Shown: positions 22,910-63,998 of the stretch, piece after piece
How the letters are laid out: every line of letters begins with the position of its first letter
Numbering within the stretch: position 1 is the first letter of the stretch
The notes under the pieces: model-generated
Told to the model about the DNA's origin: nothing
Databases searched by the model: none
The model's input: the letters and a program-made list of their open reading frames with translations, nothing else
Made by a program: the position numbers and the translations under genes
IMG/VR virus record: IMGVR_UViG_3300005264_000040
Coordinates: 32,001-96,000 of that record
DNA length: 64,000 nucleotides
Strand: one strand, 5' to 3'
From: a virus

Positions 22910-22951
22910 AAAATTGCGCCCTTTACAAGGCGCAATTTTTTGTGATATAAT
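22910..22951 (+). promoter_or_regulatory. terminator hairpin overlapping a promoter
   Basis: aaaattgcgcc / ggcgcaatttt stem with TTTACA (22922) in the loop and TG-a-TATAAT at 22943-22951. Confidence 0.55.
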
Positions 22952-23039
22952 ATATAGCGAACTAAAAAATAAGGGGAGTAAAAATAAAACCCCGAGCCCA
23001 AAAAGGAACCCGGGGACCCCAATCTAATAAAGAAAGGAG

Positions 23040-48641: not shown

Positions 48642-48679
48642 TTTAAAACCTCCTTCAATAATTCTCAGTTATTATTATA

Positions 48680-51600
48680 TCATAAATATGGAAATCTTTT
48701 CTGAGTAACTTTTCTAAATGTGTTGTTTTCTTCTTGATATTCAATTTCTATTCCATCAAGTTGATCGTTTATAATTAGTTTTGCATAAGTGAATCTTAGA
48801 CTTAGCAACCCATTTTTGACTAAATCCATGTTAAAATCTTTTTTTATACTGTCCCATAAATAAAGATAATCATTAATAAACTCAGAACGCCAACCATAGA
48901 ATATCACTAGTTCTTTTGGAGCTATAGAAATATTTCCGCGTCCATCTAATAAAATATTTTTTACAATACTATTAGTAGTGTTTTCAACAATTGTCACTGG
49001 AAATCTGAATACTTCTTGCGAAACAGAACATGTCAATGCATTCTGAATTCTTACAACATTTTTTAATTCAAAAAGCATAGTGAATTTCTTTTCATCAAAA
49101 CCCACATTTGCAATATTTGTATATATGTCTTTTCGGGTTTTTGAACAATCCTTTTTATACCCTAATAAAATCAATTGATATCTTGAAAATCTCTTTATAT
49201 TAATGTCAAAACTTTCTATTAACTTTTTATATTGACTTAATTCATTGTGTATATATAGTTGTAAAGCAGTTGATTGCATTTTTGTATTGGCTTTTATATT
49301 AGCAGAATTAATATTATATTGTGATATTTCAGATTTTAAAGAAAAATAGTTTTTATGAGCTATAACAAACTGTATGTCGATATTTAAAGACAAACTTAGA
49401 AGTTGCATAAGAATTGCATTTAATTCCTTTTCAAATAATGCTACGTCTTTTTTATATCCTTTAAGAACTCTTTTTATTGGCAAAGAATACGATACTAAAT
49501 TCATATCTATGAAATTTGAAGAAATATCATATTGTGTTACTTTATTTTCTATAAATAATTGATAGTGTTGTAAATTATGTAAAGCTGAAACTATGCGAAC
49601 ATCTGTATCAGAATATTGAAGTGCTTTAGAAAATACAGGATCAATATTCAATTTTTGTAATTGTATATAATAAACAACTACATACGAATCAATTTCATTT
49701 TCTTCAGTTAGGGTTGATGGGACTATTTCACACTCTAATAACTTATTATTATTTTCAGTTGGATATTGAGCGATTTCTACATCATCTATAAATATTGGTT
49801 CTGGTTCCCTAGAAAGTAATTTGTATATAGCGTTAATATGTATAGGTTCTGTTTTAGGGGCAACAGAATGTTGGAAAACTGTGCTTCCTATAAAAACTTG
49901 TGGTAATACCCATACTAGTGCATTTATGTTTCTTAAGGTTCGATTTGTAAAAGTAGGATTATTCAAAAATTGTTTAGAATTAAAATATAAAAGTCCTTCA
50001 GTTAAATTATTAGTATCATTTCTTAAACCTAAAACATTAAAAGCCGGATTGAGGAAACGTCCTGTCCTAGCCAATTTAAAACTTGAAGTTAAAGCTAAAG
50101 TATAATCTCTTTTTTGAACTTCTAAAAAAGTATCTTCTTGAATTAATCTTTTTTCTGGCTCATCAACGTGTTTTAAAAAAGTTATATAATTATTTTGTTT
50201 TCCAACAAAATATTTCGAATTAGTACTAATATTGAAAAAATCATAGTAATAATTATAAGGAGTAGAATTATCAAGATACGTTCGAACTAATGTATCGGAT
50301 ACGTTCGGGTCTAAAGAAAAATATTCTTCATATATAATTTTCAAATTAGAATCCAAAGAGGAATTACTTGCTGCCTTAATTGCTCTAAAAGTATTAGGAG
50401 AATTGATGTAACAATAATGAATAGAATAATTAAATAGGAATGTAAAATCATCTATACTAAAACGATTATAAAATATTATTTCTTTATGAGTAATAGTTGA
50501 AAACGTATCTAAATCATAGTAAATTAAGAGGAGCCCATATTTTCCTTGTTCATAGTCTTTAACCATAGCTCCTACAATCAATACATTAGAATAAACTTTA
50601 TTATCATATATCAATGTATCAAGAGGTCTGAAAAACATGTATCCTTGTGCTCCTGAATATCCGAAATCATTTACATGTGTTGGAAAACCTATACTATTAA
50701 CAGTATCAGTTTCAGGATCATATATATATTTTGATATGGGGTTATATATTACATTATAATTTGAAGGATCTTTAAAAAATAAACTAGGAATATTTGAATA
50801 ATTGCTTCCTATTTGAGTAACTTCTAAATTTACAGGATCTAAACGATATTTTGAATTGCTATAAAAAAATTCGTAAGTATTAGGGTTAAAAAATACAAAT
50901 GGAGTTATAAAATTATAAGGAGTAGATTTAAATCGTATGCTAGAGTTATTTTGATTTAGCTCTATTAGATATTTAGAGGCTGAAGTATCTCCTGTTAATT
51001 TTACGATCGAATCTAAAAGTTTGAAATATTTACGATTTGGATCAGTTTTACTTACAAATAAACCATACAGACCAAATATTGCGTCAATGCCAGAATTATT
51101 TTCTCTAAGTAGTAAATACATATATTTTTTATCATTAGCTTCTGCCAGATAATAAAGATCAAAGTCATTAGTTATTGCTAGGTTATCGTCTCCGTTTATA
51201 TATTGTGTTTCTTTAAGACTTACTTTTAATCCTTTTAATTCGTAAATTTCAACTTCGCAGTTTAGTGTATTAGTAGAATCAGAATGTATAGGAATGTAAG
51301 TTGGTATATCTATATTTTCTCCAAAAACAATCCAATTTAAATATAATATGTCATTATTTCTTTTATAATAAGAAGATTCACTAATATTGTCAATTGTAGT
51401 TTGTGTTGGCCACGGATAAACAGTTTCTGAAGTTGGATTTGTTGTCAAATCATACAAATGAATTCCATCGGTAGCTATTAAATAAAATTTGTATTTATTC
51501 GTAGAAAACCGCCATCCTGTATATCCAGCTCCAAGCATATATGTAGGCCAATTTGAAATTGTGCTTTCTGCTTTTATGTCAAATGAAACAAATCCATCTG

Positions 51601-54142: not shown

Positions 54143-57100
54143 CTATTTGATTAATTGCTCAAATTGCCATTTGTCTAATATATTTATGGTTTTTATTTTG
54201 TTTTCCTTCAAATCGCGATAATCATTTAGCACTATTGTTTTTTGAACATCATATATATCTAAAGAACCTTCTGCATTCATTACATTTTTTATTCCATTTT
54301 TACTATAATAGTTTCGTATCCAAAATCTATCTTTTAATTCTTGATAGATTTCAAAGTATTCATCTAAAAAATAAAATGCACTATCTTTAGGTAATACTTT
54401 TATATGTGGCAAATTATATATAGGTTTTCCGCTTATATTAACAACTAGCTTTAAATCTATCAAAATAGCTTTGCAAATTTCTACTTCTATTTTTCTAAAA
54501 GACTGAACAAATAAAAACTGAATCCCTCCACAATTTTCCAATTTGACAGGGGGACAACTATCTTCTGTCGCGTATTGAGATACGAATATATCTGTATAAA
54601 TAGGAGGACAATTGTCTTCTGTTGCATGCTGTAGTACATACACATCAAAGTTTATAGAAGGATGTACGTATTGCATTAAATCAGCGAATTCTATATCAAT
54701 AGGAGGACAATTATCTTCTGTTGCATGCTGAATTAAATTAGCAAACTCAATGCTAATCGGAGGACAGTTTTCTTCTGTTGCATATTGCATCAAATCTGAA
54801 AATGTAAAACGCACAGGTTCTTTTGTATTGAATACTGAATATTGCGATATTCGAATATCCATATCAATAGGAGGACAACTATCTTCGTCTTGTGTTGCAT
54901 ATTGCAATAAATTCAAAGTAAGATATTTTGAAACATCAGTATAAGGCATTTTATAATCTTTATTTGTATATTCTAAAACAGTGCATTTAATTGTATTTTT
55001 AGGTTTAATTTCGAAAGGAGTTTTTTCAATATCTACATATTGAGTTAAATTAGCAAACTCTATATCAATAGGGGGACAACTGTCTTCGTCTTCTGTTGCG
55101 TATTGCATTAAATCAGCAAACTCTATATCAATAGGAGGACAACTATCTTCGTCTTGTGTTGCATATTGCATTAAATCAGCAAACTCTATATCAATAGGAG
55201 GGCAACTGTCTTCGTCTTCTGTCGCGTATTGCGTTAAATTAGCGAATTCAATATCAATAGGAGGACAACTGTCTTCATCTTCTGTTGCATATTGAGTTAA
55301 ATCAGCGAATTCAATATCAATAGGAGGACAACTGTCTTCATCTTCTGTTGCATATTGTAATAGAGTAACAGGTTTAACATCAATAGGGGGGCAACTATCC
55401 TCATCTTGTGTTGCGTATTGCATTAGATTTGCAAACTCTATATCAATAGGAGGACAGCTATCTTCGTCTTGTGTTGCATATTGTAATAGAGTAACAGGTT
55501 TAACATCAATAGGGGGGCAACTATCCTCATCTTGTGTTGCGTATTGCATTAGATTTGCAAAAGTTATAAATTTAGAAACATCAGTATAGGGCATATGATA
55601 ATCTTTATTTGTATATTCTATTATGACACATTTAATTGAATTGTGGGGCCTTTTATCTAAAGGTGTCTTTTCTTCATCTATATATTGAATAAGATCTGCC
55701 AAGTCTATTTTGTGACTTTCTTTTTTATGATAAATTTTACGTTCCCACTGACACTCGATTGATGCATGAGGTCTTTTGTCTAAAGGTGTTTTCTCTTCAT
55801 CTATATATTGCATCAAATCTGGAAATTCTATTTTCTTTTCTTTTTTTATATGATAAATAATAGGTTCATAAACACATTCAATTGGAATACCAGGCCTTGT
55901 TACTTTATGAAGAACAGTCTGATAAAGATCAAACATATATATAGAACGGTTTGTATCTTCTCCATAACTCGCAACAACAAAAGAAGGGCCTGCTTGGTTT
56001 GTATATCTTTTTGTGAAAACACTTAAATATTTCGCATTTATTATATTTAAATCATAAAATAAATGTATCGGATACACTATATCTGGATATCCGTAGAAAA
56101 TATTCGTTTCATCATGATGATCGGGAATTTTTATTATATAAACTCTTTCATCTATTGTACTATTAGCTATAATAAAATATCCATATATATCAACTGTATA
56201 ATAGCTAAAATCAAAGTTTTCTATATCAGGTATTTTTGTTTGTAAAATGTCTGATATATATCCTACGTGATAAAAAAACTTTTCTAATCCTCCATTATTA
56301 TCTATTGAAAATTTAATTTGTTTAGTGTGTAAGGTATATATGGAATGGGTAGAACTAGGATATTTTGCATAATAAGTTAATCTTCCAAGATAAGAGTTAA
56401 AACGAACAGGATTGCTGGTATTAAACATCCCATTCAAACTTTCTCTTATACCTTGCCCATCTTTAGGATATAAAAGATAATATTGAAAGTTATGATCTTC
56501 TACATTATATTTCATGTTTGCAATTTCTATAAAATAGTAATCCGGAATATCTATTGGAGTTGTGCTACCATTATAATTTTCCTTGATTAAAACAAGGTTT
56601 TGAACACCGCCTGTCCATATAAACCATTGATATGGTTTTGCTTTTGATTGCAAAACCATAACAGGTAAATAAAGAGGTTCGTTTCTATATTCTACATTAT
56701 TAGTAATATCTTTTATATAAACAGTATAAAAATCATCATTTGCAGTATATTGAACATATGTACTGTAGCCTATTACGCCTTGAGATATATCAAAAGCGGA
56801 AGAATCAGGAAGATCTGCATATTGTATATTTTGATTTACCAAATCCAAAAGAAGAATTTTATTTTGACTTCTACTTAAAACCATTACATAACCATTAAAA
56901 GGCCAAATATCATTTCTATCATCTAACCACGTATCGTCTGGAGTAACAAAAAGAGAACCTTCGCCTATTGGATCCACGCCTCTTCTTCCATATTTTATAA
57001 TAGCATTAGTTGGTTCCATAGCAGTCATTATCCACCAGTCTTCCAACAAATAAGTTCTATGCAATCTGAAAGGTACTAAATTACTAGCATTTGGATCATT

Positions 57101-57475
57101 ATATACATATATTCTGCTAAAACTTCGATTATCTATATCGAATTTTACTAAATAACAATGTTGAACTGTTTGATAATAATCGGAAAAACCTACTCTCCCT
57201 ATATATATATCTTTATTTTCTCTATCATAAATAGCACGTCTTGTATAATTTCCGCTTGAACCATTTGGCATAGTATAAGTATGAACGGATATAATTGAAT
57301 AATCATATCCTACCAGAGTTATTCTTAAATTCTGATAATAAGTTTCTACTATAGCAAACTTAATCGTTTCATCTATATTATGAATATAATCAATAGTACT
57401 TGTGATATTATATGTTTCTTCTATATTTATATTTACTTTATTCACTACAAAAGTATAACTTGTCACATCGCTCAT
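54143..57475 (-). CDS. putative tail protein with internal SCPP tandem repeats
   Basis: 1110 aa; 13 CPP-containing repeats; shared C-terminal domain. Confidence 0.55.
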   Translation of the reverse strand: MSDVTSYTFVVNKVNINIEETYNITSTIDYIHNIDETIKFAIVETYYQNLRITLVGYDYSIISVHTYTMPNGSSGNYTRRAIYDRENKDIYIGRVGFSDYYQTVQHCYLVKFDIDNRSFSRIYVYNDPNASNLVPFRLHRTYLLEDWWIMTAMEPTNAIIKYGRRGVDPIGEGSLFVTPDDTWLDDRNDIWPFNGYVMVLSRSQNKILLLDLVNQNIQYADLPDSSAFDISQGVIGYSTYVQYTANDDFYTVYIKDITNNVEYRNEPLYLPVMVLQSKAKPYQWFIWTGGVQNLVLIKENYNGSTTPIDIPDYYFIEIANMKYNVEDHNFQYYLLYPKDGQGIRESLNGMFNTSNPVRFNSYLGRLTYYAKYPSSTHSIYTLHTKQIKFSIDNNGGLEKFFYHVGYISDILQTKIPDIENFDFSYYTVDIYGYFIIANSTIDERVYIIKIPDHHDETNIFYGYPDIVYPIHLFYDLNIINAKYLSVFTKRYTNQAGPSFVVASYGEDTNRSIYMFDLYQTVLHKVTRPGIPIECVYEPIIYHIKKEKKIEFPDLMQYIDEEKTPLDKRPHASIECQWERKIYHKKESHKIDLADLIQYIDEEKTPLDKRPHNSIKCVIIEYTNKDYHMPYTDVSKFITFANLMQYATQDEDSCPPIDVKPVTLLQYATQDEDSCPPIDIEFANLMQYATQDEDSCPPIDVKPVTLLQYATEDEDSCPPIDIEFADLTQYATEDEDSCPPIDIEFANLTQYATEDEDSCPPIDIEFADLMQYATQDEDSCPPIDIEFADLMQYATEDEDSCPPIDIEFANLTQYVDIEKTPFEIKPKNTIKCTVLEYTNKDYKMPYTDVSKYLTLNLLQYATQDEDSCPPIDMDIRISQYSVFNTKEPVRFTFSDLMQYATEENCPPISIEFANLIQHATEDNCPPIDIEFADLMQYVHPSINFDVYVLQHATEDNCPPIYTDIFVSQYATEDSCPPVKLENCGGIQFLFVQSFRKIEVEICKAILIDLKLVVNISGKPIYNLPHIKVLPKDSAFYFLDEYFEIYQELKDRFWIRNYYSKNGIKNVMNAEGSLDIYDVQKTIVLNDYRDLKENKIKTINILDKWQFEQLIK
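55040..55543 (-). repeat. 8 contiguous 63-bp coding repeats (YAT[Q/E]DEDSCPPID...L.Q)
   Basis: 504 bp = 8 x 63; units 1 and 3 are identical at the DNA level. Confidence 0.95.
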
Positions 57476-57548
57476 TTTATATCCACCCCTGTCTTTATAT
57501 CCTTCTTATTATAACATCTTCACTCATAAAAATGCCAATAAACAATTT

Positions 57549-59591: not shown

Positions 59592-59646
59592 TCTATTCGA
59601 CCTCCTTTTTTAGTATTATATCATTTAAAATTTATATGATGCTATT

Positions 59647-59677
59647 AAAAAAAAATTCGGGATATACATCCCGAATT
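59647..59677 (-). terminator. intrinsic terminator after RNA polymerase gene
   Basis: aattcgggat / atcccgaatt 10-bp stem with T tract on minus strand. Confidence 0.8.
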
Positions 59678-62600
59678 AGTACTTTCCTTTTTCGCCTTTC
59701 CCAAAAGTAACACCTCTTGCCCATTGAGCTATTGGTGAATAACTATGTTTCTTTGTTTTTGCACCTGTCATAGCTGAATGAGGAACAGTTTGTCTTAAAT
59801 ACCTAAAACTCATTCTATGTTCAAAATCATCTGCAATTGTAGGTTGTTTTGCTGAACCTAGTAATAAATTCTTGTATTTTATCTTATCGTTATAAACAGT
59901 AACTTTTTTTATACCTGCTTTTTCTAATTCTTCTTTTATATCTTCATCTATTAAAGTTCCTTTTGAAATATGAGCTGTGTCATCATATAATCTATGTCCT
60001 ATTGCATCTTTTAAAGGGACTGTCATAGAAGAATCTCTATTTAAAGAATCGATATAATTCCAATTTACGACATCTCCTGTTTTTAATTTATGTTCATAAG
60101 GTCCTGGATCCACTACTACAGCTTTATCAGTAACAGATCTTACAATAGTTTCCGTTACTTGAGGATTCATCTTTTTATCTATTTGGTTATATACAATATC
60201 ATTTAATTCATTGAGCATTGCTTTTTGTGCTTCAGGCACACCTCTTAATCTTGCTAATTGTTTGTGAGGCAAAATACCATGGGACAGTTTGTCTCCTTTT
60301 TTTACAAATTGTCCTTCCTTCACAACTAATCCTAAACGTTTAGGGATTTTGTGTATTTTATCTTTGATTTTCACTTCATAAACTGAAGATTTTTCTACAA
60401 TTTTTTCAACTTTTCCACTACGTTCTGCAAGTTTTGCAAAATTAGGATTACTTTCAGGCATTCTTAATAATGTAGAAACTTGTGTAAATACATCCCCTAT
60501 ATTTTCATTTCCTGCTCCTACTACACTACCGGAATGAAACAATGACATAGAGGTTTGAGCTAAAGGTTCTGTTACAGCTTGTCCTGATTTTATCCCTATA
60601 TTTTCTCCTATTTCAGGTAATTTATAACTTTCATCAATACCAAAAGATTTAGCCGCTATTCCTTCAGGTAATGTTGATGTTAAAGGGGATTTTATGTATA
60701 TAGACGTTATTCCGCTTTGTTTTAAATCTTTAATCATTTCAGCGGTTACTTCTTCGCCTTTTTTATATTCTGTTTTCTTACCTTTTATATTTTGAGCTAA
60801 AAACCTTCCTATATATTTTTCATCTACATTTACTTTTAAACCTGGATCTTTGTCATCATCTTTATCAGCAACAACTAAGGTCATTAAAGATTCTAATAAT
60901 TCTTTGTTCAAAGCTCCAGGTTCAGAAACCATAGATTTTCTTGCAATCATACCAGAACGAGCACCATACCCTACACTTAAATATTCAGCAGGAGTTAAAC
61001 CTTCTGCGAAACTTCTTTTTACTACAATTGGTGCAGGTTTTCCTTTTGCGTCCTGAACTAATAAAGGAGTAGCTGCAATTTGCCTTATTTGTCCAATACT
61101 TCCTTTTGCTCCTGACATCGACATGTTGTATAATCCATTCTCCTTATATTTTTTAGAACGTTTATCTTCAAGGGATTTATCTAATTTCTTTTGTAAATCC
61201 ATAGCTTTTTCTATTTTTTGTTTATAAGGAAGTTGATTTATTTTATCCACTTCTTCTTTGATTTTTTTGACATCATCATCTTCTTCTTTAATATCATCAA
61301 TACCTACACTTAATCCAATTCTTGTAATTGCGAATCTTCCTACATCTTTCCAAGTTGAGAATATTCTATTTATCTCTTCTCCTAATAAACGCCCTTTGGA
61401 TTTTTCAATAGCTAATTCATTAGCTAATTGTTGAATCATTTTTTTGTTCCATGTAGAATTTTTATTTGGTTCTATATATTTTCTGTAGAATTCTCTTTTA
61501 AGATTTTCATCTTGGATAGTTAATAAAACATCCATAATCAAATGCCTTCCTGCAGTTGCACTATACCTGTATCTCGGATCTACTCCTAATATTTCCACTG
61601 TATCATTCCATTTTATTTGGTTATTTAAAAATCTATCATACAATTCATCATAACTTTTTACCATTATTTTTCTTCCTGGTTTTTCTGGTGGTTCTGTCAC
61701 TCTAAATATTCCATTTAAATATTCCATTGAAGGCAAATGCATTATTTGTTTTGTTCCAGGTTTTAAAAGATTATTAGAAGGCAACATTTTAAATGCTTCT
61801 TTTCTTGCTTCTTCAGTAACCGGAACATGAATTCCCATCGTATCACCATCAAAATCAGCATTAAAGCCTTTTACAACCAATGGATTAAGTTGAACAGCTT
61901 TCCCTTCTATAAGTCTTGGCTTAAAAGATAATATAGAAAATTTGTGTAATGAAGGCGCTCTATTTAACATTATAGGACGTTTTTTCATTTCTTCTTGTAC
62001 AATATCCCAAACCATATCATTAGGATCTTTCAATAATTCAGTAATTCTTTTATTGTCATATCCCATTTTTTTGAGTTCTTTCTTTATAAATGGTTTGTAA
62101 AGATTCAAAGCAACGGGTTTAGGAATACCAGCTTCATCTAATTCTAAATCAGCACCCGGTTCTATTAATCCTGTTCCTGAAAGTTCTTGCCTTTTCTTCA
62201 CTACTTTTGACTGAAAATATCCAGATTTAGGAGATTTACCTGGAGCACCTGCCACATAATGTAGAGCTCCGGCTGGTTCTTCTTGTTTGCTGTTTTTCAT
62301 AGGAGGATTACTTCCAACAACAGCTCCTACAGCTTCCAATAATTTTTGTCTATATTTTGCTGCACGTTTAGGGGATAAATTATCTTTCATTTCTTTGAAA
62401 CGTTGGTTTAAATTAATCAAATCTTGATATACATAATTTATTTGAGAAACTCTTACATCTGATTTATCGGTGGGAGAAGGATACACCGGCCTAAATTTTG
62501 GTGGGATTACTGGGATTTTAGAAATAACTAAATCTTCAGGTTTTAATTTATTTTCCTTCAACATTTTTAACATTTGCACTTTTCTTAAAGCTTTGTCAAG

Positions 62601-63998
62601 AGTTCTTTGTTCATTACTATTTTTCAAATGTTCTTCTGCTTTTTTTAATTCTTCATCCACATTTATTTTTGACAATAAATATTTAACAGCTTCGCCTCCG
62701 CCAATTGCTTTATCTTTTGGAGATACTTTATTTACATCTACTAATTTACCATCTTTTAAGACCATTTTACCTTCCATGATTTTTCTTAAATCTTTTTGTT
62801 TTAAATCTAATAATTCAGCTATTTGTTTTTCGAATAAAGGATTTACAATAGGTTCTGCTAATTCTATTTTCCCCCATTTATCTCCTTTAAGGCCACCTAA
62901 TTTATGCGGGTCAAACAATCCACCTTTTTCTGGTAAAAGGTTGTGGCCTGCTAAAATTTTAGCGTTTTCTACTTCACCTGCGGCTAAATTATCTACATCT
63001 TTATCGGTAATAGGTCTATATTTAATCTCCTCTTTGTTTTCTTCTGAATAAATACCAGCACCAGTTAAATAGGCTCTAAATTTTTCATATGCAAAAGGAG
63101 TTTTCATGGTTGAAGGAGGGGGTACTTCCCCGTTCTCAATGGCCCTCCAGAATTCATCATTTTTCTCAGCTTTATAGGTGGCCATTTCACGCAGGTTTTC
63201 CCTTGCGTTGTGCGCTACCATCCCGTAGAATGTTAGCGCATCTAAAGAACGAGCACCCCCACCAGCACCAGTTCCTTTTAAAGGTTGTAAATCTGAATCG
63301 TAAGCCCAATATTCGCCTCTTGTATTAGTTTTCTTATCTACTTGTTGAGGAAGTTTTATAAAATATTGATATCCCACCAAAGCCGGTGTTTCCATTTCAC
63401 CTTCTCCAGGAATATATATTTTTTCCTTATCTTTAATATTATATTTTTTCATTAATTGTTTTGTATATTCTGTCATATCCTTTTCCGTATCAAACAAAGG
63501 CACTTTAATAGGATGTCCAGCTTTAACTGCAGCTTTCCCAGCTACAGTCTCTAATATCTGCGATGGATTGATACGTGAAGGCAACGAAAGAGGATTTAAA
63601 AGGACATCGATAGGTTTCCCTTTTTCATCTTTAGGCATTTCGTCATCAGGTAATATTAAAGATACAGTACCTTTATTCCCGTGTCTTCCGGTCAATTTAT
63701 CTCCAACTTGCATTGGAGATTCATATTTTACCATAACACGAATTTTATCTCCTAATCTATATACTTTTACTACTTCTCCTATTTCTTTATGTTTCCATAC
63801 GATACTTTTATCTACATAATCTCTTAAAACTTTATCTGCAAAAGCACCTAATATTTTATCATTTTCTGAAGGTACTCTTTCTCTCAAAACTACTGCAATA
63901 GGATCCCCATTTTCAAGTTTAATTCCTTTTTTTGCAATACCTTCATTATCTAATTTTTCTAGTTGGTTTGCACTATATTTAGTTGGATAATATGCTTG
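59676..63998 (-). CDS. single-chain fused beta/beta-prime DNA-directed RNA polymerase, 5'-truncated by window edge
   Basis: Frame open to window end; beta GDKLTGRHGNKG (63669-63704) and NPLSLPSRIN; beta-prime NRAPSLH, NADFDGD (61842-61862), bridge helix EGLT...GARSG, trigger loop EPLAQTSMSLFH. Confidence 0.95.
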   Translation of the reverse strand, partial: QAYYPTKYSANQLEKLDNEGIAKKGIKLENGDPIAVVLRERVPSENDKILGAFADKVLRDYVDKSIVWKHKEIGEVVKVYRLGDKIRVMVKYESPMQVGDKLTGRHGNKGTVSLILPDDEMPKDEKGKPIDVLLNPLSLPSRINPSQILETVAGKAAVKAGHPIKVPLFDTEKDMTEYTKQLMKKYNIKDKEKIYIPGEGEMETPALVGYQYFIKLPQQVDKKTNTRGEYWAYDSDLQPLKGTGAGGGARSLDALTFYGMVAHNARENLREMATYKAEKNDEFWRAIENGEVPPPSTMKTPFAYEKFRAYLTGAGIYSEENKEEIKYRPITDKDVDNLAAGEVENAKILAGHNLLPEKGGLFDPHKLGGLKGDKWGKIELAEPIVNPLFEKQIAELLDLKQKDLRKIMEGKMVLKDGKLVDVNKVSPKDKAIGGGEAVKYLLSKINVDEELKKAEEHLKNSNEQRTLDKALRKVQMLKMLKENKLKPEDLVISKIPVIPPKFRPVYPSPTDKSDVRVSQINYVYQDLINLNQRFKEMKDNLSPKRAAKYRQKLLEAVGAVVGSNPPMKNSKQEEPAGALHYVAGAPGKSPKSGYFQSKVVKKRQELSGTGLIEPGADLELDEAGIPKPVALNLYKPFIKKELKKMGYDNKRITELLKDPNDMVWDIVQEEMKKRPIMLNRAPSLHKFSILSFKPRLIEGKAVQLNPLVVKGFNADFDGDTMGIHVPVTEEARKEAFKMLPSNNLLKPGTKQIMHLPSMEYLNGIFRVTEPPEKPGRKIMVKSYDELYDRFLNNQIKWNDTVEILGVDPRYRYSATAGRHLIMDVLLTIQDENLKREFYRKYIEPNKNSTWNKKMIQQLANELAIEKSKGRLLGEEINRIFSTWKDVGRFAITRIGLSVGIDDIKEEDDDVKKIKEEVDKINQLPYKQKIEKAMDLQKKLDKSLEDKRSKKYKENGLYNMSMSGAKGSIGQIRQIAATPLLVQDAKGKPAPIVVKRSFAEGLTPAEYLSVGYGARSGMIARKSMVSEPGALNKELLESLMTLVVADKDDDKDPGLKVNVDEKYIGRFLAQNIKGKKTEYKKGEEVTAEMIKDLKQSGITSIYIKSPLTSTLPEGIAAKSFGIDESYKLPEIGENIGIKSGQAVTEPLAQTSMSLFHSGSVVGAGNENIGDVFTQVSTLLRMPESNPNFAKLAERSGKVEKIVEKSSVYEVKIKDKIHKIPKRLGLVVKEGQFVKKGDKLSHGILPHKQLARLRGVPEAQKAMLNELNDIVYNQIDKKMNPQVTETIVRSVTDKAVVVDPGPYEHKLKTGDVVNWNYIDSLNRDSSMTVPLKDAIGHRLYDDTAHISKGTLIDEDIKEELEKAGIKKVTVYNDKIKYKNLLLGSAKQPTIADDFEHRMSFRYLRQTVPHSAMTGAKTKKHSYSPIAQWARGVTFGKGEKGKY

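What the first reader, a model, noticed from the sequence alone, without database searches (positions are those of the whole stretch)
59676..63998. Fused beta/beta-prime RNA polymerase with no cysteine and both zinc sites lost: candidate virion-packaged enzyme
Seen: beta C-terminus runs into beta-prime N-terminus without a stop near 63020-63050; zero Cys in 1440 visible residues (the similar-sized primase-helicase has about nine). The beta-prime N-terminal Zn finger is deleted (GLFDPHKLGGLKGDKWGKIEL), the second Zn site reads SPLTSTLPEGIAAKSFG, and the conserved beta His in KLxH is Gln (KLPQQ). Established: bacterial beta-prime binds two Zn through eight Cys; beta/beta-prime fusions occur in Helicobacter and Wolbachia; bacterial-like RNAPs are reported in some metagenomic tailed phages; coliphage N4 virion RNAP is Cys-free and injected. 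Inference: a single-chain, Zn-independent RNAP packaged in the head and ejected, possibly needing no alpha or sigma subunit.
Basis: partly seen in the sequence, partly recalled or inferred. Interest (0 to 1): 0.75.

Follow-up and report, generated by a model that had tools for sequence, protein, structure and literature searches.

The report
Cysteine-free single-chain phage RNA polymerase
An uncultured 180-kb phage makes both large subunits of a bacterial-type RNA polymerase as one 2128-residue protein with no cysteine and neither usual zinc site; it has its own sigma factor, and the enzyme is probably carried in the virus particle, as in a cultured relative.

Summary
Window 59676-63998 (minus strand) encodes 1440 residues: the end of beta joined without a stop to all of beta-prime, with zero cysteines. 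The N-terminal zinc ribbon is deleted, all four ligands of the second zinc site are replaced, and the catalytic motifs are intact.

New points:
- The gene continues past the window. In this IMG/VR contig a 32-nt deletion, 104 nt beyond the window edge, removes a conserved beta motif and shifts the frame.
- An independent assembly, 100% identical over 26.4 kb, has the intact 2128-aa, cysteine-free ORF.
- More than 50 metagenomic relatives are single chains. All lack zinc site 1. Most keep site 2 and have exactly those four cysteines. The query's clade lost them too, one of at least 2-3 independent losses.
- The phage encodes a cysteine-free sigma-70-family factor predicted to dock on the clamp helices, so "no sigma needed" is unlikely. 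No alpha or omega was found.
- Portal, terminase, sigma and polymerase are homologous to Salmonella phage Arash, whose polymerase and sigma were abundant in virion mass spectrometry.

Virion packaging is plausible (about 50%) but not shown here. This scan has already found the family on other genomes. I rate it a new variant of a known kind.

The parts
59676..63998 (-). C-terminal 1440 codons plus stop of the single-chain RNAP gene (end of beta, then all of beta-prime). The full gene runs to genome 98030, which would be window coordinate 66030, outside the window.
   Evidence: intact 2128-aa allele P0127
63669..63689 (-). Beta double-psi barrel motif GRHGNKG, carrying the active-site lysines
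63342..63356 (-). KLPQQ: the conserved beta His of KLxH is replaced by Gln. This is specific to the query's clade.
62985..63170 (-). Junction where the beta C-terminus runs into the beta-prime N-terminus with no stop and no long linker
62859..62921 (-). Place of the deleted beta-prime N-terminal zinc ribbon (zinc site 1)
   Evidence: about 32 columns are present in the bacterial-type rows only, and absent in all 18 phage rows aligned
62313..62447 (-). Beta-prime clamp helices, the predicted docking site of the phage sigma factor
61842..61862 (-). Catalytic NADFDGD loop
60897..60965 (-). Bridge helix
60840..60875 (-). First ligand position of zinc site 2 (TDCGT in bacteria) reads KDDDKD
60639..60689 (-). 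Remaining three ligand positions of zinc site 2 (CxxxxxxxCxxC) read S, A, S
60525..60572 (-). Trigger loop with its His retained (LFHSG)
59654..59677 (-). Intrinsic terminator directly after the RNAP stop codon
59614..59623 (-). Extended -10 box TGATATAATA of the next gene. The same box precedes the RNAP gene at genome 98080, outside the window.

Best explanation
This is the catalytic core of a phage-encoded, bacterial-type (two-barrel) RNA polymerase made as one chain of 2128 residues, with beta followed directly by beta-prime.

Shown:
- All catalytic elements are present.
- The N-terminal zinc ribbon is deleted in every phage family member aligned here.
- The second zinc site and every cysteine are gone in the query's clade.
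- The gene is its own transcription unit (terminator, extended -10 box, ribosome-binding site, ORF, terminator).
- The phage has only this one RNAP.
- It encodes a cysteine-free sigma-70-family factor, and no alpha or omega.

Inferred:
- The single chain plus the phage sigma form a holoenzyme. It reads the TATGnTATAATA promoters found in front of about 28 genes in all modules.
- The covalent fusion replaces the assembly role of the alpha dimer.
- The enzyme, and probably sigma, is made together with virion genes, packed into the head and ejected with the DNA to start transcription. Selection therefore removed cysteines and bound metal, which are liabilities for a protein that must leave the cytoplasm, pass the tail and refold.

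The copy in this contig carries a 32-nt deletion in beta. It is either an assembly artefact or a defective variant, and it is absent from an otherwise identical assembly.
For: Identity and architecture:
- Pfam and NCBIfam hits cover beta and beta-prime in one frame.
- PDB beta-prime matches reach E 6e-94 and beta matches 8e-31.
- Relatives have single ORFs of 2004-2140 aa.
- The intact 2128-aa allele lies on a 184-kb scaffold that is 100% identical over 26.4 kb except for the 32 nt.

Zinc and cysteine:
- Site 1 is deleted in all phage rows and site 2 is lost in the query's clade.
- On the tree the query sits in a clade of 10 site-2-less rows (support 100) nested among rows that keep site 2. 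At least 2-3 losses are needed.
- 22 intein-free members have exactly 4 Cys, all of them site-2 ligands.
- Non-ligand Cys is 0.062% over 86,644 residues, against 0.36% in this phage's proteome.

Sigma:
- Sigma70_r3 scores above the Pfam cut-off.
- The family profile matches RpoS and SigA over regions 2-4 at E 4e-23.
- It is homologous to Arash Gp10.
- It has 0 Cys, and the family has 0.047%.
- Complex model: score 0.72, best of 3 controls 0.00. That mark was reached by 58 of 80 solved complexes and 2 of 110 mismatched pairs. The runs agree in at least 36% of contacts and the partner's pLDDT is at least 70. The interface is clamp helices against sigma region 2. This is a textbook pair, so the pass shows likeness, not binding.

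No alpha or omega. One RNAP only.

Lineage: portal E 7e-71 and TerL E 1e-69 to Arash.

Packaging:
- In Arash virion mass spectrometry Gp206 has the most spectra (3516), Gp216 has 1210, and sigma Gp10 is present (PMC10585845).
- Cysteine suppression in ejected proteins is published (PMC11445570).
Against: - There is no direct evidence that this phage packages the enzyme.
- The Arash preparation also contained ribonucleotide reductases and other enzymes (116 proteins), and its authors allow carry-over of abundant infected-cell proteins.
- The Arash RNAP keeps zinc site 2 and 5 Cys, so packaging, if real, does not require a cysteine-free enzyme.
- The promoter in front of the RNAP gene and many other genes is an ordinary extended -10 box that a host sigma-A holoenzyme might read. 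That would make an injected polymerase unnecessary.
- 11 of the 37 ORFs of at least 400 aa in this genome also lack Cys, so the proteome is Cys-poor in general.
- The host is unknown. If it has no periplasm, the published rationale for cysteine loss applies less well.
- Neighbouring genes are unannotatable, so 'late/virion module' rests only on portal and TerL lying on the same strand, 17.6 kb upstream and 12 kb downstream.
Confidence: 0.55

Rival explanations
1. Non-virion polymerase. The gene is transcribed after infection by the host RNAP from its extended -10 promoter. The single chain plus phage sigma then takes over middle and late transcription in the cytoplasm. Cysteine and zinc loss reflect other pressures, such as independence from zinc supply, tolerance of oxidative stress, escape from host factors, or drift in a Cys-poor proteome.
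For: - The TGnTATAAT promoter class looks host-like and precedes the RNAP gene itself.
- The proteome-wide Cys level is low at 0.36%, and 11 of 37 large ORFs lack Cys.
- The Arash authors' own alternative is carry-over of abundant enzymes.
Against: - This reading does not explain why non-ligand Cys is about 6 times rarer in the RNAP family than in this phage's proteome. Nor does it explain why members that keep site 2 have exactly four Cys.
- Sigma is equally Cys-free across its family.
- The RNAP chains are at or near the top of the spectral counts in gradient-purified Arash virions.
Confidence: 0.3
2. The copy in this contig is a real loss-of-function allele. A 32-bp deletion removes the beta motif YLAYKGMNFED and shifts the frame, so this genome would come from a defective or hitch-hiking subpopulation.
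For: - The deletion is in the deposited contig, with 2-nt microhomology (AT) at its ends.
- The motif is conserved in all relatives.
Against: - Another assembly carrying the same BioSample number in its scaffold name is 100% identical over 26.4 kb and has the intact ORF.
- There are no other differences, as would be expected for an assembly glitch or a rare variant.
- Reads could not be inspected.
Confidence: 0.3
3. Cellular contamination: a fused rpoBC of a bacterium (as in Helicobacter or Wolbachia) mis-binned into a viral contig.
For: Fused bacterial rpoBC genes exist and appear among the distant hits (P0110-P0112).
Against: - The gene lies within one contig that also carries TerL, a portal and phage-type genes.
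- It falls in a phage clade separated from the bacterial-type fusions with support 100.
- It lacks zinc site 1 and the bacterial N-terminal Pfam domains of beta.
- NCBIfam scores are far below the equivalog cut-offs.
Confidence: 0.01

Closest known systems
RNAP of Salmonella phage Arash (Gp206 + Gp216, sigma Gp10; OQ632216, PMC10585845) and of Vibrio phages D69, D148 and D181
   Same: - Same RNAP family: about 35% identity over beta-C plus the beta-prime N-half.
- Beta is covalently joined to beta-prime, and the zinc ribbon (site 1) is deleted.
- There is a homologous small sigma factor with 0 Cys.
- Portal and TerL are homologous.
   Different: - Arash splits beta-prime after the catalytic loop into two chains (1525 + 606 aa). 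D181 has three chains, with homing-endonuclease genes annotated in this stretch (one between the first two chains).
- Both keep zinc site 2 (4 Cys) plus 1-2 other Cys.
- The Arash catalytic loop reads AADYDGD.
- The query is one chain with 0 Cys and no zinc site.
mReC, 'multimeric RNAP-encoding Caudovirales' (Weinheimer and Aylward 2020, PMC7481178)
   Same: Metagenomic tailed phages of 30 to more than 200 kb that encode beta and beta-prime recognisable with cellular profiles, forming a phage-specific clade.
   Different: - The paper does not mention the fusion, the zinc sites, cysteine content, sigma or virions.
- Membership of this contig could not be checked by contig name.
- Its T4-type capsid family was not detectable here, but the control was silent.
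Virion RNAPs of N4-like phages (gp50; Schitoviridae)
   Same: A large, cysteine-free polymerase carried in the head and ejected. Cysteine suppression is a documented trait of that ejection operon (PMC11445570).
   Different: N4 gp50 is a T7-like single-subunit enzyme that needs no sigma and is unrelated in fold. Here the enzyme is a two-barrel cellular-type core with a sigma.
phiKZ-type jumbo phage virion and non-virion RNAPs; crAss-like gp66; Thermus phage P23-45 tape-measure RNAP
   Same: Two-barrel polymerases of phages, some proven to be in virions.
   Different: Those are highly diverged and either split into 4-5 chains (phiKZ) or embedded in giant proteins. They use no sigma-70-family factor (PMC7824862). 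The query keeps easily recognisable bacterial domains, clamp helices and a sigma.
Fused rpoBC of Helicobacter and Wolbachia
   Same: Beta and beta-prime are in one polypeptide, joined beta C-terminus to beta-prime N-terminus.
   Different: The bacterial-type fusions sampled here (P0110-P0112, organisms not named by the tools) keep both zinc sites and have 15-27 Cys. From general knowledge, bacterial rpoBC fusions still work with alpha and omega. The phage family branches apart from them.

Membership tests
Bacterial-type multisubunit RNAP core (beta + beta-prime) | Beta double-psi barrel with the GxxGNKG lysines, and the (F/Y)xxxxGxNxED loop | tested here: met
   GRHGNKG is in the window. The loop YLAYKGMNFED is present in the intact allele P0127 but deleted in this contig.
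Bacterial-type multisubunit RNAP core (beta + beta-prime) | Beta-prime NADFDGD, bridge helix and trigger loop | tested here: met
Bacterial-type multisubunit RNAP core (beta + beta-prime) | Two zinc sites in beta-prime (4 Cys each) | tested here: not met
   Site 1 is deleted and the site 2 ligands are replaced.
Bacterial-type multisubunit RNAP core (beta + beta-prime) | Separate beta and beta-prime chains assembled on an alpha dimer, plus omega | tested here: not met
   It is one ORF. No PF01000, PF01193 or PF01192 hit was found in the 83%-complete contig, and the controls rang. Use of host alpha is not excluded.
Bacterial-type multisubunit RNAP core (beta + beta-prime) | Promoter recognition through a sigma-70-family factor bound to the clamp helices | tested here: inconclusive
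   A sigma gene is present and a docking model passes its controls. Binding and activity were not measured.
Arash-like fused phage RNAP lineage | Beta covalently continued into beta-prime, and the zinc ribbon absent | tested here: met
Arash-like fused phage RNAP lineage | Co-inherited small sigma factor, portal and TerL | tested here: met
Arash-like fused phage RNAP lineage | Enzyme present in virions | not testable with these tools
   The only data are the Arash mass spectrometry (PMC10585845).
mReC (PMC7481178) | RNAP falls in the published phage clade; T4-type MCP (PF07068) | tested here: inconclusive
   No contig identifiers matched the supplements. The PF07068 search gave nothing, but its control was silent.
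N4-like single-subunit virion RNAP | T7-like polymerase fold | tested here: not met
   All hits are to the two-barrel families. The PF00940 search was empty, but its control was silent.

The most novel reading that the evidence does not exclude
A complete sigma-dependent, cellular-type holoenzyme (one 2128-residue core chain plus a 244-residue sigma, with no alpha, no omega, no zinc and no cysteine) is packed into the capsid and ejected through the tail. It would then refold without cofactors to start transcription. That would be the first injected RNAP of the sigma-using bacterial kind. Repeated independent loss of the last zinc site would mark ongoing adaptation to that route.
Probability: 0.4. 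Interest if true: 0.75.

Novelty: new variant of a known kind. Interest (0 to 1): 0.6.

Why it matters
Bacterial RNAP is thought to need two structural zinc ions and an alpha-dimer scaffold. A natural family does without both and comes as one chain plus a small sigma. It would be a minimal, easily expressed model for asking what alpha, omega and the zinc domains are really for. It would also widen the set of enzymes known to be delivered by virions.

The cysteine count (0, or exactly the 4 zinc ligands) is a simple sequence marker that could flag ejected proteins in uncultured phages. Neither the fusion nor the zinc and cysteine loss is mentioned in the paper that defined RNAP-encoding Caudovirales or in the Arash paper. 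Cultured relatives (Arash and Vibrio phages D69, D148, D181) make the packaging question directly testable.

Tried and rejected
- **Other contigs of this phage.** Exact-word scans of viral and metagenome contigs for the junction flanks found none. The exact-protein cluster look-up did.
- **Neighbour annotation.** PHROGs and Pfam found nothing for nine neighbours, except TerL. PHROGs found nothing for the four giant ORFs.
- **Upstream 666-aa ORF as portal.** Rejected: there is no similarity to the Arash portal, and the Atlas gives only weak beta-propeller-like leads. The real portal homolog lies at genome 115632-117572.
- **Hidden second polymerase in the 3202-aa cysteine-free ORF** (an idea from earlier scan notes). 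No DxDGD or DGD motif, no family hit, and low His and Trp. Only one Rpb1 match exists in the contig.
- **mReC membership by contig identifier.** No match in the supplements.
- **PF07068 and PF00940 searches.** Uninformative, because the controls were silent.
- **Word-index search for sigma relatives.** It found only the protein itself. The exhaustive search was needed.
- **Extended -10 box in the window.** It is not significantly enriched by count alone: 4 found, 1.6 expected, and 5 of 100 shuffles reach 4. Its weight comes from its position in front of genes.
- **First MAFFT run.** It timed out.
Full report
**1. The observation**

The window is bases 32001-96000 of a 177,768-bp IMG/VR virus record, estimated 83% complete, with about 29% G+C. 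On the minus strand an ORF runs from the window's end to a stop at 59676, giving 1440 residues.
- Pfam finds Rpb2 domain 6, then Rpb1 domains 1, 2, 4 and 5, in this single frame.
- Solved bacterial beta-prime chains match at E 6e-94.
- The 1440 residues contain no cysteine.

**2.

In the contig, the frame ends 33 codons upstream of the window edge. The N-terminal 642 residues of beta lie in another frame, as a 656-aa ORF with a 14-residue out-of-frame tail holding its only two Cys.

That ORF aligns with bacterial beta up to GKNL..A. Relatives continue there with an 11-residue loop of the type YMPFEGLNYED, which is missing from this contig.

An exact-sequence cluster look-up found a 2128-aa member on a 184,070-bp ENA scaffold whose name carries BioSample SAMN06288063.
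- The scaffold is 100.000% identical to this contig over 26,387 bp, apart from 32 extra nucleotides that encode YLAYKGMNFED and restore one frame.
- The deletion has 2-nt microhomology at its ends.

The real gene product is therefore one chain of 2128 residues with 0 Cys. The contig's copy is either an assembly artefact or a defective variant. Reads could not be examined.

**3. The family**

More than 50 metagenomic proteins of 2004-2140 aa (longer where inteins are inserted) have the same continuous beta to beta-prime layout. They come from contigs of up to 182 kb. A second group of about 1450-1600 aa stops after the catalytic loop, as in Arash.

A tree of 54 full-length rows puts all phage forms apart from the bacterial-type fusions, with support 100.

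**4. Zinc sites and cysteines**

- Site 1: the N-terminal zinc ribbon (about 32 columns with CxC...CxxC in the bacterial rows) is absent in every phage row.
- Site 2: its four Cys columns are CCCC in most phage rows. They read D/S/A/S-like in the query and its nine closest rows, and also in two separate rows, P0043 and P0049.
- On the tree the query's ten-row clade (support 100) is nested among rows that keep site 2. At least two to three changes are needed.
- 22 intein-free members have exactly four Cys, all of them the site-2 ligands. Members without site 2 have none or one outside inteins.
- Non-ligand Cys is 0.062% over 86,644 residues, against 0.36% for this phage's ORFs. With the latter rate, the probability of 0 Cys in 2128 residues is 4.6e-4.
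- The His to Gln change in KLxH is confined to the query's clade.
- The catalytic elements GRHGNKG, NADFDGD, bridge helix and trigger-loop His are all kept.

**5. Partners**

*Sigma.* A 244-aa ORF at genome 111197-111931, on the same strand and 13 kb upstream, is a sigma-70-family factor.
- It scores above the Pfam cut-off for Sigma70_r3.
- It hits RpoS and RpoD models.
- A profile built from 45 relatives found by exhaustive search matches solved sigma factors over regions 2-4 at E 4e-23.
- It is homologous to Arash Gp10.
- It has no Cys, and its family has 0.047%.

*Docking model.* The model used residues 1000-1420 of the RNAP chain and this sigma.
- It scored 0.72, against 0.00 for the best of three controls.
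- That mark was reached by 58 of 80 solved complexes and 2 of 110 mismatched pairs.
- The runs agree in at least 36% of contacts, and the partner's pLDDT is at least 70.
- The interface joins the clamp helices (1213-1244) to sigma region 2.
- This is a textbook pair, so the pass shows likeness to solved holoenzymes, not binding.

*Other subunits.* No alpha or omega homolog is found, with working controls. There is no second RNAP.

**6. Context**

The gene is flanked by intrinsic terminators. It is preceded by TATGATATAATAC and a ribosome-binding site, and the same box precedes the next gene.

TGnTATAAT occurs 58 times in the genome. In 28 cases a ribosome-binding site and a start codon follow within 130 nt (in 24 of them within 14-40 nt). 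These lie in both the replication and the large-protein modules.

Such boxes suit a sigma with a region 3, but a host sigma-A could read them too.

A homolog of the Arash portal (E 7e-71) lies 17.6 kb upstream, and TerL (E 1e-69 to Arash) lies 12 kb downstream, both on the same strand. The genes in between have no recognisable family.

**7. Is it packaged?**

For:
- In Arash, virions purified on a sucrose gradient gave the most spectra for Gp206 (beta plus the beta-prime N-half; 3516 spectra). Gp216 gave 1210, and sigma Gp10 was detected (PMC10585845).
- Cysteine suppression is documented for the ejected proteins of Schitoviridae, including N4 gp50. The published rationale is passage through the periplasm (PMC11445570).
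- In this genome the most significant zero-Cys proteins are a 3202-aa ORF of unknown family, the RNAP, and also sigma.

Against:
- The Arash list holds 116 proteins, including metabolic enzymes, and its authors allow carry-over.
- The Arash enzyme keeps site 2 and five Cys.
- The promoters look host-readable.
- The host is unknown.

I put packaging at about one half.

**8. Comparison and novelty**

| System | How it compares |
|---|---|
| Arash, Vibrio phages D69/D148/D181 | Closest cultured systems |
| mReC (PMC7481178) | Closest described class. The paper does not mention fusion, zinc, cysteine, sigma or virions |
| N4 gp50 | This enzyme may work like it (injected, Cys-free), but it is not a member of that fold |
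| phiKZ and crAss polymerases | It differs by being conservative, sigma-using and single-chain |

This scan had already reached similar conclusions for the same family on other genomes. I reached Arash independently and checked the paper myself.

Verdict: a real, well-supported feature and a new variant of a known kind. The packaging claim remains open. The gene copy in this particular contig is broken.

Noticed in passing
genome 96104/96105 (104 nt beyond the window's end; L002:5104-5106): A 32-nt deletion with 2-nt microhomology removes the beta loop YLAYKGMNFED and shifts the frame. It is absent from an otherwise identical ENA scaffold.
   Followed up: yes
genome 111197-111931, minus strand (L011:1411-2145): A 244-aa cysteine-free sigma-70-family factor, homologous to Arash Gp10. 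It belongs to a family of hundreds of small sigma-like proteins (582 representatives at E <= 0.001).
   Followed up: yes
window 22943-22952 (+), 48673-48682 (-), 57507-57516 (-), 59614-59623 (-), and about 50 more sites genome-wide: A promoter-like class TATGnTATAATA (extended -10, no clear -35). It lies mostly 14-40 nt before a ribosome-binding site and start codon, on the strand of the gene that follows, in all modules.
   Followed up: partly
genome 163864-173472, minus strand (L006:865-10473): A 3202-aa ORF with no cysteine, 0.2% His and 0.2% Trp, and no Pfam or PHROG match. It has no polymerase motif. It is possibly a tape-measure or ejection protein.
   Followed up: partly
L005:3966-11435 (relative, 49% identical): An insert of about 350 residues sits directly after NADFDGD. 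It carries all four Cys of that protein, and its identical-length cluster representative P0009 carries an intein Pfam hit (PF14890). Several relatives carry inteins or LAGLIDADG domains in the RNAP gene.
   Followed up: no
window 54143-57475, minus strand: A 1110-aa ORF with 20 Cys (1.8%, the highest in the genome) and internal tandem repeats offset by 126 nt (87% identity). It is one of four paralogous genes directly downstream of the RNAP gene.
   Followed up: no
genome 5129-6349, plus strand (L010:409-1629): A 406-aa cysteine-free protein with a C-terminal excisionase/MerR-type helix-turn-helix (HTH_17). It is not a sigma factor.
   Followed up: partly
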